From assembly GCA_905178155.1 (NCBI GenBank), contig CAJINV010000005.1:5665379-5729378 (forward strand): a stretch of 64,000 bases of DNA, in the 5' to 3' direction. Shown here piece by piece: positions 31,909 to 38,522 of this stretch. The position numbers were made by a program, and so were the translations under genes. This DNA is from Amoebophrya sp. A120. Lineage: Eukaryota > Protista > Dinoflagellata. Each line of letters begins with the position of its first letter. Within the stretch, counting starts at the first letter, position 1. The notes below the pieces were generated by a model. The model saw only the letters and a program-made list of their open reading frames with translations, had not been told where the DNA came from and made no database searches.

Positions 31909-32491
31909 GCAGCGCGCAACTGGTCTCGAACTCCCGTGGTCGGTAGTAGTTGCGAAGAAGTAGAACATAAAACACTATTTCCACCACAGCCTCCTGGCAG
32001 CAGGAGCAGCATCTATCCGCCACAGACAGGGCAGGATGCGCGATGTTGTGCGCCGTCAGCTCGCAGCAGCGAGCGTGCTGGCAAAGCATATTAACTGCGT
32101 CGAAGGTTGTGCCGTGGCATCAATCTCATCTTCTCGATCATATCAATCAACACGATCACGAAGGAGCTTGAAGTCAAGGTGATGCTGCCATCTCAAAGGT
32201 GGTTTAGGCATCTCCACCGGGTGGAGCCGCGTTGTTCACGCACCTCTTTTGATGCAGTAGAACCTTCATGATCTTTAAATGATATATGAGTGACTTTTTA
32301 TGGAAGATCACACTACTCTTTAAATGACTTTATCGCGACTGTTTAGATGCTGGATCATCACGCTACCTCTTCAAATGACTTCTGGATCGTGAAGATCAAT
32401 GAAGTGGCTGTGGTAGTACCTGGATGAACAACCAGACCTGGATCAAAAATCGTTTTATGGAAGATCGAAGATCAAGATCAAGGGTCATCTC

Positions 32492-32513
32492 ACCGTAGCC
32501 ATTTTGGCTCAAG
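32492..32513 (+). other. Complete 22-nt dinoflagellate spliced leader (DinoSL) at the 5' end of the LINE
   Basis: ACCGTAGCCATTTTGGCTCAAG matches DCCGTAGCCATTTTGGCTCAAG exactly; followed by CA rather than a GT donor, so not an SL RNA gene. Confidence 0.95.
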
Positions 32514-32773
32514 CATCTTTTTATTTTGCTTTTTGGGGGTCACAAAATGATTGGGGTGTAATGGCAGAATGAGTGTTTTCGCATCGTCCCCCCTCACATC
32601 ACCACCTCGCGGGTAAAAGGGAAGCGCGCCGTCTTTGTCTTTTCCGCTGCAAACTCCTACGCGACGACGGAGCGACGAACGATGTGAGGAGCTTCAAATA
32701 GACTGATTACCGAGGGCGTCCCGGCGTAGTAGACTCCGGATCCACCGGGCGCTTCATTGTCAGGTCCGCGAGC

Positions 32774-35700
32774 ATGCTGTTAGTCGTTATCTCTCTTTGC
32801 TTTCTTCTCGTGCAGCACCAGCGGGTCATGGGCGGTCGCAGAGACCCGACCAGGATCCGCAGACCCCACCGAGCCTGCAATCAACCGGTAGCACCAGGCG
32901 ACTGGGTCTTTGTACTGACGCAGAACTGTCAACGGGCAAACTTTCGGTACTTGGAGGGTGTTGACCAGTCGGCACCCCTCCAGCAGGTGCAACAGGCGGA
33001 GAAAGTCCGCGGTGTGTTCCAACACATCGCGGCTAACAAGGCGAAGGTCGCGCTCCTTTCCGACGTTCAGTGGAGCGGCGCACGTGGTGCACACATCAAG
33101 CGGTACGAGTTCACCCACGGCCAGCACTACGTTTATGGAGGAGGTAGAGTGGCCATCGTCTTGCACAAGTCCATTCTGTTCGCAGCGGATGGAAAATCTC
33201 TCATCAGACCGGTCGTCAAATTCTTCGGCCCCCGCATTATGGCGCTCTTCATACGCGGGACGTGGTTTGCGGTGGGATACCAGCCAAGCGACACGGTTGC
33301 GGACTTCGCAGAACTGGGCCAGTTCTTGCTTTGGCGCGAAAAACTTTTGTTTGCGACAGGTACCAGCAGCATCATCTTCGGCGGAGACTTCAACTCAGCA
33401 GTTTCCCAGTTGCCCCGAGGTCCAGAGGATGAAGAGGCAGGCGCTGCAGCGGCGATCGGCTCGGCCCCGCTGTTGGAACCACCCGCGAACCCCCGTCCGG
33501 GACATAACAACATGCGTTTTGCAATCGATAACATGTTGTGTATTCCGGACACCTTTAAGTCCATCCACAGAAGAGGCACGTGGAGGCATCCCGCGACCGG
33601 GCGATGGTACGAGATTGACTATTTCTACACATCGCGACAGGTTCATTTTGGAAACGTGAAGACCATCCAGCCCAAATTTCTCACCGACCACCGCGGCAAG
33701 CGCATGGCTGTCAAGCTAGGGCTTTCGCAGAAGGACAAGCGCGAAATCCGACTCCGAGTAATGACAATTACGCCGTCCCCACCGTATGAAGCGCTTCGGC
33801 GCGACGAGACAGCGCAGACGGCTTTTGCAGCGGAGACGGATGCCAACCTTCGGAAGGAGCAGCAGAACGGAGGCAGCAGCCTTGCCAGCAGGTGGGAAAA
33901 GTTCACGACAGTAGTAGCGAACAGCGCGACGGCGGTCGTTCCGGCAAATCAGGAGAGGGGGGCGCAGCAGTATCCCCCGTGGCTGAATGTACGGAAATTC
34001 CGCGAATACAAGAACGAAAAAGAGGACCTACTGTACTCCCGATTTCTAGCAGCGGACGCGAACGAGCGGCAGCAGTACAACAGGAGACTGCGGGCGATCG
34101 AGAAAGACTACCGTGCTGTTGAGAAGTTGGACTTTGAGGACTACATCGACCGTATTGCAGACGAGTGCCAGGCGGAGTATGGTCAGTGCGGTAGAATTGA
34201 CTACGCAAGACTACGGCGCACAGGTGTAATCTTCGAACCAACGGCGGGAGCAAGGGTGAGAAAGGCGATCCCGTTCACCGTAGAAGACGCGAAGAAGCAC
34301 TTCAGCAAGCTGATGTTGCGAACGGCAGAGGTCCCGCAAGGATTTCAGGAGGCCCTGGAGAGAAACCTGGACCAACTCCCGGAATCTGTGGACCCGATGT
34401 GGGGCATACCCGACGAAGGCGAGATCGCTCACTGTGTCAAACAGATGAAAGACTGCGCGTTGGGAGTGGACCAGATTCACATTGCCCACATCAAGCACCT
34501 CGGCGACGACTCATGGGATTTCTTAGTGAACTTGGTGCAGGATTGTTTCAGAACGAGAACGATTCCGGACGCGGCGCACTTGGTGCGCATGAATGCCCTC
34601 CACAAGGGGAAGAACCTTAATCCGCGGCTGCTAGACAACTACCGCGCCATTGCGGTGGCGACCTTTCTCTCGAAATTGTGCGAGACCATTTTGCAGAAGA
34701 GGCTCAAGCACTACCTCGAGCGGATCGGTTTCTACCGGGAGACAGCGACGCAGCGAGGATTTCGGTCAGATTGTTCGACGGCGGATTTGGTGATGATGTT
34801 GCAGTTCATAGCGGACCAGACGCGAACAGTAGTGCGGGAGTCGATACTGGATGAGCTAGTTCTAGTGTTGATCGACTTCAAGAAGGCATTTCCAAGCGTG
34901 ATTCGGGAGCTTGTATACCGTATCCTGCGGCGTGCGGGCGTTCCTGGCACAAACGTGGAATTCCTGGCGCACTTTCACGACAAGGCAACGTTTTACATCA
35001 TGGTGGACCGCGAGCCATCTGAAGAGTGGAAAGCAACGCGCGGGATGAAAGAAGGAGGACCATCCAGCCCCGACGGTTACGGAATTCTGAGCGAGATCAT
35101 GTTTCGGGAACTGGCGCGCAGGCTAAACGGCATCAAGTTGGCAACGACGGGCGATTTTTTGTCGAAGCTTGCGGCCTTTACGGATGAGCAGAACATCAAC
35201 CCCGCAGCGGTGCGCAAGGTGGTCGCCTTGCTTTTTGCAGATGATGCAACGCTCCCGACGACACTGCGGGAGGCGCCAATGGTTGAAAGCACGATCAAGG
35301 ACGTAGCGACTACTTTCGGCCAAGAGGTGCACCCGGACAAGACGGAGCGGCTTCTACTGCAGGGACCACACTTCCACTACCCCGGCCCAAGACAGAAGGA
35401 TGGGACCCCACCAATACCACCCGGATTCGAGGAAAAAGTAAAAGTTGTAGGATGCGAACTGTCTACGTACCACAGCGCAGGAGTGTGCCTGGAGCGGCAC
35501 TTGAAGAAGGCGCGCGGAGCGTGGGCGGAGTGGAAGCCGATTCTACTACGGGCGCGCGGACGGATCAACTACTTCAAGCGAGGCAGCCTGATCAAATCCA
35601 ATGTCCTTTCGCATGTCTACTACAACGCGGCAGTGCGGCTGTGGAACGAGCGCAGTTATCAGGAAATCAATGTCTTCATCAACAAGATGTTGCGCACCAT

Positions 35701-36770: not shown

Positions 36771-36850
36771 GTGGCGCACACACCCACGCTTGTAGTGGCG
36801 CACACACCCACTACGACTACATAGTGGCGCAAATACCCACTCCCTGTAGT
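36771..36850. repeat. Three copies of (TA)GTGGCGCA(C/A)A(C/T)ACCCAC in the LINE inter-ORF spacer
   Basis: Seen directly in sequence. Confidence 0.75.
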
Positions 36851-37039
36851 CCGTCCATGGTTCTGCTCTTCTCTTGTTTCTTCTCTGTCACTGGCCTACT
36901 GCATGTTGTTTGTTGATCGCTTGCAAATCTCGTTTTCCTGCACCCTAGCTAAAATTACTGCTGTATCTTCACCTGCTGTTGTAAGTATCTATTCCCCACC
37001 GCTGCACGACACAAAAAATCGTCTTCTCACCGTACGAAG

Positions 37040-37648
37040 ATGCAGCGTCGTGTTGAACGCATCGAGAAAGAACGATGCTTGATGGTGCAGTTCAACTCTC
37101 CGGAAATCCGCTGGCCGCGGAAAGACAATTCCCCAAATGGTGACTTTTTGACGAACTTCGACAAGGAGCAGAAGAAGACCTTCCTCCGCCTGATGGGTAC
37201 GCACTTCCAGGGTGCCCAGCCATCTCCCAAGAAGATGGAGTACCAAACCAAGGACGACGGATCGTCCGAGCTCACGGAGCTGCAGGACGACTGGTCCGAC
37301 GCCCAGAAAGCCGACTTCACCGAAAAGAAGAATGCTTTTGTCGAACTGTGGCGGTCGATTGCGGACGCCCCGGAGTTGGTCGAGTACATCAACTGGAAAA
37401 ACAACAACTGGATCCAGATCGTGTTTCACCTCGGCGAGCATCACAGTAAGGTGATGGATTTGGCCCGTGTTGTCGACAACAACCCCTACCGCAAGTACTT
37501 CAGTCGTGGTCTGAAGCTGAAGCCGATGCAGATGGGTAAGCCGAAGGATGGCGACAACGCTGGCAACGGCGGCGCCAATGGTAACGTCAAGAAGAAGGGC
37601 GGCAAGAAGGGCAAGGGGAAAAACGGGAAAAAGGGAAACGGAAAGTAA
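37040..37648 (+). CDS. 202-aa LINE-internal downstream ORF with basic K/G-rich tail (putative RNA-binding protein)
   Basis: Strong C/G third-position bias, no interruptions, lies between the RT stop and the (CAAAT)n tail; C-terminus KKKGGKKGKGKNGKKGNGK. Confidence 0.75.
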   Translation: MQRRVERIEKERCLMVQFNSPEIRWPRKDNSPNGDFLTNFDKEQKKTFLRLMGTHFQGAQPSPKKMEYQTKDDGSSELTELQDDWSDAQKADFTEKKNAFVELWRSIADAPELVEYINWKNNNWIQIVFHLGEHHSKVMDLARVVDNNPYRKYFSRGLKLKPMQMGKPKDGDNAGNGGANGNVKKKGGKKGKGKNGKKGNGK

Positions 37649-38522
37649 TGACATGATGACGCTAATTATGTCTACCTGCCAGTGCGTGAATCTCATCTAC
37701 ACTTTCTCCGACAAAATCAACCACGCGATAACGACTACCAGCAAGCACGACAGTCCTGTGCGTGATTTCGCTGGGGCGCATGTTTGAAGATTATGAAGAT
37801 TGAGAACTGGAAGAAATACATGCGTTCACAAATGAACTCCAATCACGTAATGGAGTGATGCAAACACTGATGGTGCTGCCTGGTACTACTTCAGCCAGGA
37901 GCACAAGCTGCTTGACACCTGCAGTCAAGAGCTACGACAGACAAACGCTTTGAATTACGTGCTACGCACGGCAAACAGACTGTATGTGTGCAAATCAAAT
38001 CAAATCAAATCTCACCTCGGAAAAAAAGCAGCGAGTAGAAGATCAAAATCCTCAGTGCGAAATCTTCGATGAGCCGCATTTCAAGTTTTTCCTTGTTGAT
38101 GTGGTCTACTCCCCATGACTTTTGAATTGCTCAAGCTATTCCCTTCATCGTCCTACAACAGTAGAAATGCAAGCAGCCAGATCCACTATTCTATCGCTTG
38201 ATATTGTCCACTTCTTCTTCATCCCATCGAGTTGTTAATAATAAGTAGAATCTACTCATTGCACAGATCGATTAAAACTGAAATTATTTTTACAAGAACT
38301 TGAATCCAACATCGTGTGTGCCTGTAGCGTAAAGACTTCTGAGCTGTGGTACATTGATTCTTCTACTACAATTGCCCAAGAACTAGAACCCCTCCATCAA
38401 CTACAACTCGCTTCGTAGCTTCCGGCTTGCAAAACCAAAACAGACCGTCTCTGACTACGAGCCAAAGAACTACCGAACATAGTCATAGATTAGATTCGAA
38501 GTAAAAATCGTCCACAAGAAAA

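What the first reader, a model, noticed from the sequence alone, without database searches (positions are those of the whole stretch)
32487..38016. LINE retrotransposon whose 5' end is an intact dinoflagellate spliced leader
Seen: a perfect 22-nt DinoSL sits exactly at the 5' junction of an uninterrupted APE-RT element. ATCTCACC occurs at both ends, overlapping the SL's ACC and the tail's AT, which places the SL inside the insertion. Known: dinoflagellate mRNAs are SL-trans-spliced and retrogenes can retain SL relics. Other RTE/R2 elements free their 5' end from read-through transcripts with HDV-like ribozymes, while SLACS/CZAR/NeSL insert into SL genes. This site is not an SL gene because no GT donor follows. 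Inference: the element is transcribed by read-through, capped by trans-splicing and copied to the very 5' end. The integrated SL's terminal AG could then act as the acceptor for the next round, giving a promoter-less, self-regenerating 5' end.
Basis: partly seen in the sequence, partly recalled or inferred. Interest (0 to 1): 0.92.

Follow-up and report, generated by a model that had tools for sequence, protein, structure and literature searches.

The report
Spliced-leader-headed LINE in dinoflagellate parasite
An intact jumping gene (a LINE retrotransposon) in what is likely an Amoebophrya-type dinoflagellate parasite begins with an exact DNA copy of the 22-letter leader that these cells splice onto their messenger RNAs, so this copy was likely made from a host-spliced RNA, a route that would let such elements spread without a promoter of their own.

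Summary
An exact 22-nt DinoSL (32492-32513), the only one in the window, heads an uninterrupted endonuclease-reverse-transcriptase ORF (32702-36622). No GT donor follows it. The nearest named relative is an Amoebophrya protein (43% identity). The LINE therefore ends either at about 37020 or at 38011. Under every parse, leader bases 7-22 lie inside the insertion. The copy was most likely reverse-transcribed from a trans-spliced element RNA to its very 5' end and joined through 3-6 bases of microhomology. No ribozyme and no relic leader were found in the 5' UTR. Read-through transcription and self-renewal at the terminal AG are untested; published relics arise at the internal AG. No second copy, empty site or RNA could be obtained. 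This is a new variant of known dinoflagellate mRNA recycling, applied to an autonomous element; I found no description of it in seven literature searches.

The parts
32484..32497 (+). 5' junction (J1). Holds the 8-bp repeat (32487-32494) shared with the far end and the 14-bp repeat shared with the middle junction; overlaps the first 3-6 leader bases
32492..32513 (+). complete dinoflagellate spliced leader, 22 of 22; AG at 32497-98 and 32512-13; no GT donor after it
   Evidence: leader sequence as printed in PMC12014239
32514..32827 (+). 5' UTR: T-rich start, four short upstream ORFs (1-15 aa), unusually unstructured (z +3.3), no relic leader, no HDV-like fold found
32784..32815 (+). pyrimidine tract (22 of 25) and CAG 12 bases before the likely start codon; possible splice acceptor (lead only; 19 such tracts on this strand of the window)
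32828..36622 (+). APE endonuclease - reverse transcriptase ORF, 1264 aa from the likely start. The frame is open from 32702, first ATG 32774. APE about 32910-33700, RT about 34630-35400, two Cys/His motifs about 36266-36526
36623..37020 (+). spacer or 3' UTR, with a pyrimidine tract (36860-36886), first AG at 36947-48, and an A6 run at 37013-37018; candidate 3' end of the LINE proper
37021..37034 (+). middle junction (J2): 13-of-14 repeat of the 5' junction, five bases before the ORF2 start; candidate second copy of a 14-bp target duplication
37040..37648 (+). ORF2, 202 aa, no homolog found, Lys/Gly-rich tail, GC3 0.77; codon use nearer the RT ORF than any of 9 host frames
37991..38011 (+). 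(CAAAT)x4.2 tandem tail
38009..38016 (+). far junction (J3): exact 8-bp repeat of 32487-32494, overlapping the tail

Best explanation
This is an intact APE-RT LINE whose DNA begins with a complete spliced leader, likely because the host trans-spliced the leader onto the element's RNA and the element's reverse transcriptase then copied that RNA to its very first base. Shown: the exact leader at the junction, the intact ORF, and direct repeats at the junctions that overlap the first 3-6 leader bases. Inferred: target-primed reverse transcription, with the second strand primed by microhomology between the leader start and the target; the copy is young. Predicted, untested: the new copy is transcribed from host sequence upstream (same strand as most neighbouring frames) and is capped again at one of the leader's two AGs. 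The terminal AG would restore the identical 5' end; the internal AG would stack a 15-nt relic. I put about 0.75 on the trans-spliced template and about 0.35-0.4 on a routine promoter-less, self-renewing cycle. ORF2 likely travels with the element, or came in as a second insertion at the same site.
For: Exact, unique leader at the junction. Bases 7-22 lie inside the insertion under both boundary parses. The match stops exactly at the splice-junction AG with no donor after it, as in a mature mRNA. Intact ORF with APE motifs and FADD. Nearest named relative from Amoebophrya, grouped at SH-aLRT 99 in a quick tree; trans-splicing is reported in that genus (PMC7789003). Retroposed leader-headed mRNAs are common in dinoflagellates (PMC5585692, PMC12014239, PMC3229502). 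Microhomology priming of the second strand is proposed for R2 (PMC3774820). No ribozyme match and a very unstructured 5' UTR. 16 of 21 long host frames lie on the same strand.
Against: One copy only. An exact 5'-UTR probe found 0 metagenome stretches. 0 of 54 related loci carry a leader, but they are only 20-33% identical and not shown to be dinoflagellate, so this says little. PMC7789003 reports a single complete leader-like sequence in each of two Amoebophrya assemblies, so leader-headed copies would be rare there. Published relics arise at the internal AG and none is present here; this fits a first-generation event as well as renewal at the terminal AG. PMC7789003 saw no evidence of polycistronic transcription. 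The 3' end is ambiguous. Four upstream ATGs precede the ORF, so this RNA may translate poorly.
Confidence: 0.72

Rival explanations
1. The leader is hard-wired into the element and transcribed in cis: an internal or leader-derived promoter starts at the leader's first base, so the RNA looks trans-spliced without being spliced.
For: A leader-derived basal promoter is proposed in PMC5585692. PMC2488372 notes a genomic leader at the exact splice site that could give a leader-bearing message without trans-splicing. Genome-encoded exact leaders stand before many reading frames in giant-virus contigs. No relic has stacked up.
Against: No promoter evidence here. A perfect 22 of 22 is what fresh splicing gives. 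The leader must still have entered by trans-splicing at some point.
Confidence: 0.12
2. A one-off chimera: while copying a LINE RNA, the enzyme switched to the 5' end of a host mRNA, so the leader and the first part of the 5' UTR are host-derived.
For: Single copy; the T-rich start of the UTR could not be compared with any other copy. Leader copies appear rare in Amoebophrya assemblies (PMC7789003). Template switching by LINE enzymes is recalled, not from a call.
Against: The ORF is complete to a start that matches relatives' N-termini. Other AI notes of this scan describe leader-headed LINEs in other genomes (unchecked, leads only).
Confidence: 0.1
3. Leader-targeted insertion, as in SLACS, CZAR or NeSL: the element cut at a leader or a decayed leader, and part of the leader is target DNA.
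For: The middle junction repeats the first six leader bases and lies just before the ORF2 start, which could be a decayed leader. One 7-bp core stands at three junctions, which hints at target preference.
Against: Leader bases 7-22 occur only on the element side. No donor or leader remainder follows either candidate 3' end. The decayed-leader reading is not significant (p 0.07-0.11). Known leader-targeting elements use a C-terminal restriction-like nuclease (PMC3636483), while this one has an N-terminal APE.
Confidence: 0.05
4. Assembly artefact that joined a cDNA-like leader to the element.
For: Reads could not be examined; the window has an assembly gap elsewhere (815 N).
Against: Direct repeats at the junctions exceed chance, which an artefact would not create.
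Confidence: 0.02

Closest known systems
DinoSL-relic retrogenes (mRNA recycling) of dinoflagellates: PMC5585692, PMC12014239, PMC3229502 (passages read); Slamovits and Keeling 2008 only as cited there
   Same: A DNA copy of the leader heads a retroposed sequence; the leader's AGs can take a new leader.
   Different: Here the retroposed sequence is the autonomous element itself, the leader is complete and perfect, junction repeats are visible, and no 15-nt relic follows.
L1Tc / ingi / RIME LINEs of trypanosomes (PMC1874656, passages read)
   Same: LINEs in a host that trans-splices its mRNAs.
   Different: Those elements have an internal promoter and unspliced transcripts, which the authors see as protecting full length. 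This copy shows the opposite solution.
R2, R4, RTE and L1-clade elements with 5' HDV-like ribozymes (PMC3774820, passages read)
   Same: Would face the same problem of defining a 5' end within a co-transcript; microhomology at the 5' junction.
   Different: No ribozyme was found here; the 5' end is the host leader.
CRE (SLACS, CZAR) and NeSL elements (PMC3636483, passages read)
   Same: A leader sequence adjoins the element.
   Different: They insert into SL RNA genes and carry a C-terminal restriction-like nuclease. This element has an N-terminal APE and no SL gene around it.
Amoebophrya sp. AT5.2 protein g4171.t1 (P0001) and Polarella glacialis LINE proteins (cluster of P0015)
   Same: Same APE-RT lineage: 43% identity to P0001 and 28% to P0015.
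   Different: Their DNA ends were not available, so their 5' ends are unknown.

Membership tests
APE-type non-LTR retrotransposon (L1/RTE/I/Jockey groups) | non-LTR reverse transcriptase domain | tested here: met
   RVT_1 E 1e-11, FADD motif; best solved-structure matches are R2 and LINE-1 proteins
APE-type non-LTR retrotransposon (L1/RTE/I/Jockey groups) | N-terminal APE endonuclease | tested here: met
   The profile of 26 relatives aligns through LINE-1 APE and ExoIII/APE1. Motifs N, Y, GDFN, D, DH are present; the usual first Glu is Asp here and in P0001. The query alone has no Pfam APE hit.
APE-type non-LTR retrotransposon (L1/RTE/I/Jockey groups) | target-site duplication and 3' tail, no terminal repeats | tested here: met
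   Two candidate duplications, each with a tail, both above chance; which one is the LINE's own end is open
RTE group | RT phylogeny groups with reference RTE elements | not testable with these tools
   No named RTE references could be fetched; the tree holds only search hits
RTE group | single APE-RT ORF without upstream ORF1, short tandem-repeat tail (definition recalled) | tested here: inconclusive
   No upstream ORF1 and a CAAAT tail, but a downstream ORF2 and C-terminal Cys/His motifs are present and the tail may belong to the ORF2 unit
CRE / NeSL leader-targeting elements | C-terminal restriction-like endonuclease, no APE | tested here: not met
   N-terminal APE; definition from PMC3636483
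CRE / NeSL leader-targeting elements | inserted in an SL RNA gene | tested here: not met
   No donor after the leader, and no leader remainder past either 3' end or elsewhere in the window
SL RNA gene | leader exon followed by a GT donor and short intron | tested here: not met
   CA follows; donors are described as gu, with one non-canonical C variant, in PMC3101222; Rfam finds nothing
Ribozyme-headed LINEs | HDV-like fold at the 5' end | tested here: inconclusive
   No Rfam match and 0 hits with a home-made descriptor that was not validated on known ribozymes; folding weaker than 100 of 100 shuffles
DinoSL retroposed sequence | leader or relic in DNA at the 5' end of a formerly transcribed unit | tested here: met
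DinoSL retroposed sequence | re-expression with a new leader spliced onto the integrated one | not testable with these tools
   No RNA data could be laid on the locus
LINE ORF1p-like chaperone (for ORF2) | RRM / ferredoxin-like RNA-binding fold | tested here: inconclusive
   Single-sequence model, mean pLDDT 57; best Z 5.7, many ferredoxin-like folds at Z 5-5.6, none at 8 or more; Foldseek none at E<=0.001

The most novel reading that the evidence does not exclude
A lineage of APE-RT LINEs in dinoflagellates and their parasitic relatives has given up both promoter and ribozyme and uses host trans-splicing as its life cycle. Each integrated leader serves as the acceptor that regenerates an identical capped 5' end, the leader start helps anchor the second strand at a preferred target motif, and internal acceptors release separate messages for the RT and for a downstream second protein. 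Such elements would also be the enzymes behind dinoflagellate retrogenes.
Probability: 0.3. Interest if true: 0.8.

Novelty: new variant of a known kind. Interest (0 to 1): 0.55.

Why it matters
How a LINE keeps its 5' end across generations has two known answers: an internal promoter or a self-cleaving ribozyme. A trans-spliced leader would be a third, supplied by the host, and the reverse of what trypanosome LINEs do (PMC1874656). The enzyme that made the abundant leader-tagged retrogenes of dinoflagellates was called unknown in PMC5585692. An intact LINE that likely copied a capped, leader-headed RNA to its first base is a direct candidate and can be tested. The result is limited because it follows from known mRNA recycling and rests here on one copy.

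Tried and rejected
No whole genome is held for this window and no sequencing runs could be listed, so copies, empty sites and RNA were not seen. Word-based homolog search of the RT ORF: 0 of 7,988 scored candidates passed; the full HMMER library search then worked. Exact 5'-UTR probe in metagenomes: 0. Related loci: 47 of 504 metagenome candidates, 6 of 152 in prokaryote genome bins, 1 of 180 viral; four other viral scans gave 0 of 46, 222, 46 and 11. None of these 54 loci has a leader at its 5' end. The four weak matches in L135, L144 and L148 were rejected: one lies downstream of the RT and three are on the other strand. None of the 119 leader-bearing viral loci encodes a related RT. ORF2: no Pfam family, no homolog among 82 and 593 candidates, atlas hits weak and unnamed, fold inconclusive. 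The window's three proteins are not in the exact-sequence collection. The APE model was too poor to search with (pLDDT 43). Relic leaders in the 5' UTR, upstream flank, before ORF2 and in the 3' flank: none significant (p 0.07-0.9). Pyrimidine tracts before both ORFs are not enriched over the window (19 in 64 kb) and are kept as leads only. The first codon comparison had two frames wrong and was redone. Figure S6 of PMC7789003 (Amoebophrya SL gene alignment) is a picture and could not be seen; it bears on whether a locus like this one was taken for the SL gene. PMC2734150 and PMC1838650 are not held.
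Full report
1. Observation. The bases at 32492-32513 are the complete dinoflagellate spliced leader (the leader as printed in PMC12014239). The invariant 21-mer occurs once in the window with up to three mismatches allowed; 0.01 matches are expected. 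CA follows, not a GT donor. A stop-free frame runs 32702-36622. It carries a non-LTR reverse transcriptase (RVT_1, E 1e-11; R2 and LINE-1 structures are the best matches). A profile of 26 relatives aligns continuously through the APE and RT domains of LINE-1 ORF2p (E 3e-40) and hits ExoIII/APE1. The APE motifs and FADD are in place and two Cys/His motifs lie at the C-terminus. Relatives' N-termini point to the ATG at 32828 as the start (inference). With leader and tail held fixed, 50 of 20,000 random flank pairs reach 8 shared bases.

2. A second frame of 202 aa (37040-37648) lies between the RT stop and the tail. Just before it, 37021-37034 repeats 13 of 14 bases of the 5' junction, following an A6 run. 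None of 70 real 1.5-kb segments exceeded 11 and none of 400 Markov segments reached 14. One 7-bp core thus stands at three junctions. Three readings fit. (a) The LINE ends at about 37020 with a 14-bp duplication, and the ORF2 unit is a separate insertion at the same site with its own 7-8 bp duplication; two successive insertions give exactly three copies. (b) One unit to 38011 that picked up ORF2 by 3' transduction and has a target preference. (c) One of the two repeats is chance. I favour (a) slightly and cannot decide. ORF2's codon use is nearer the RT frame than any of 9 host frames (difference +0.082 +/- 0.024 against -0.104 to +0.021; partly a GC3 effect), so it is probably mobile cargo rather than an ordinary neighbour. 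It has no homolog; its model is weak and only loosely ferredoxin-like. In every reading, leader bases 7-22 lie inside the insertion and the first 3 or 6 bases are shared with the target.

3. Host and relatives. The best protein match is from Amoebophrya sp. AT5.2 (43%, E 5e-220). In a quick tree of 69 RT regions (68 of 149 hits, chosen by rank and length, plus the query) the query groups with it and one environmental protein at SH-aLRT 99, inside a set of 38 rows that includes Polarella glacialis proteins (the careful search did not finish). The window is full of introner-like repeats. An Amoebophrya-type host is therefore likely; this is inference. 16 of 21 long host frames left of position 54000 are on the element's strand.

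4. Other copies. None could be obtained. The 54 related loci that were fetched are 20-33% identical, often do not reach a 5' end, and are not shown to be dinoflagellate; 0 of 54 carry a leader. This neither supports nor refutes the reading. Earlier AI notes of this scan describe leader-headed LINEs in other dinoflagellate, Perkinsus and Euglena genomes, some with stacked relics; I could not check them and treat them as leads.

5. Mechanism. The leader match ends exactly at the splice-junction AG, as in a mature message, and sits inside junction repeats. The simplest account is that the element RNA was trans-spliced, copied to its first base, and joined to the target through 3-6 bases shared with the leader start; microhomology priming is proposed for R2 (PMC3774820). 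The 5' UTR has no Rfam match, no hit to a home-made HDV descriptor and folds worse than 100 of 100 shuffles, so a ribozyme is unlikely though not excluded. What happens in the next round is open. Published relics come from splicing at the internal AG, which leaves 15 bases (PMC3229502, PMC12014239); none is present here. That fits renewal at the terminal AG, which leaves no trace, but equally a first-generation event from a parent without a leader. Acceptor choice is flexible in Amphidinium (PMC2488372). Pyrimidine tracts with an AG lie before both ORFs and could give separate messages, but 19 such tracts occur on this strand. Against a routine cycle: PMC7789003 reports a single complete leader-like sequence in each of two Amoebophrya assemblies and no evidence of polycistronic transcription.

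6. Rivals. A leader encoded in cis with its own start (0.12): a leader-derived promoter has been proposed (PMC5585692), and giant-virus contigs carry exact leaders before reading frames. A one-off template switch to a host mRNA (0.10). Leader targeting (0.05): the nuclease type and the missing SL gene speak against it. Assembly artefact (0.02).

7. Comparison and novelty. It works like dinoflagellate mRNA recycling and is a member of the APE-type LINEs; RTE membership is untested. It is not a CRE/NeSL element and not an SL RNA gene. Trypanosome LINEs keep unspliced RNAs from an internal promoter (PMC1874656), the opposite habit. Seven searches of the held library listed no paper that, by title or abstract start, describes a LINE headed by a trans-spliced leader; subscription journals are largely missing. 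Papers seen: passages of PMC7789003 (plus section 31 and the supplement's figure legends), PMC12014239, PMC3229502, PMC5585692, PMC4558846, PMC1874656, PMC11453091, PMC7245778, PMC3101222, PMC3774820, PMC12584245, PMC2488372 and PMC3636483; none was read whole. Slamovits and Keeling 2008 and Malik and Eickbush 2000 were seen only as citations.

8. Verdict. A real and clean observation with a corrected anatomy. Trans-spliced template: about 0.72. Promoter-less self-renewing cycle as a family trait: about 0.3-0.4. New variant of a known kind; interest 0.55, rising to about 0.8 if further copies and RNA joins confirm the cycle.

Noticed in passing
L002-L120 (viral contigs): The exact leader 21-mer occurs in 119 viral stretches (134 distinct contexts), mostly in giant-virus bins, typically after an AT-rich block and shortly before an ATG; 127 of 133 contexts have A as first base. 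It looks like a leader encoded in cis behind viral promoters. Other notes of this scan already describe it.
   Followed up: partly
window 54257-63300, minus strand: A second mobile element with long frames: a gag-like frame, a 599-aa frame whose atlas neighbours carry phage-integrase families, and an RT/RNase H-like frame by eye. It looks like a DIRS-type tyrosine-recombinase retrotransposon (label recalled) and has an 815-base N gap. No Pfam hit.
   Followed up: partly
window 19699-20623: Tandem array of six 128-bp units with T-tracts; no Rfam match. A 46-bp stretch at its edge resembles the element's upstream flank 32397-32439 (83%).
   Followed up: partly
window 300-28100, 39650-39810, 53470: Many dispersed repeats with inverted arms that interrupt reading frames, like the introner elements described for Amoebophrya (PMC7789003).
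   Followed up: no
window 44458-45733: Long inverted repeat, 423-bp arms, 93% complementary; possibly a MITE-like element.
   Followed up: no
window 36765-36850: Three imperfect copies of a roughly 25-base unit in the spacer after the RT stop, seen by eye and not reported by the tandem-repeat scan.
   Followed up: no
window 12270-13274: Frame with an endonuclease/exonuclease/phosphatase domain (PF22669, E 1e-9); a host gene interrupted by repeats, not part of the element.
   Followed up: no
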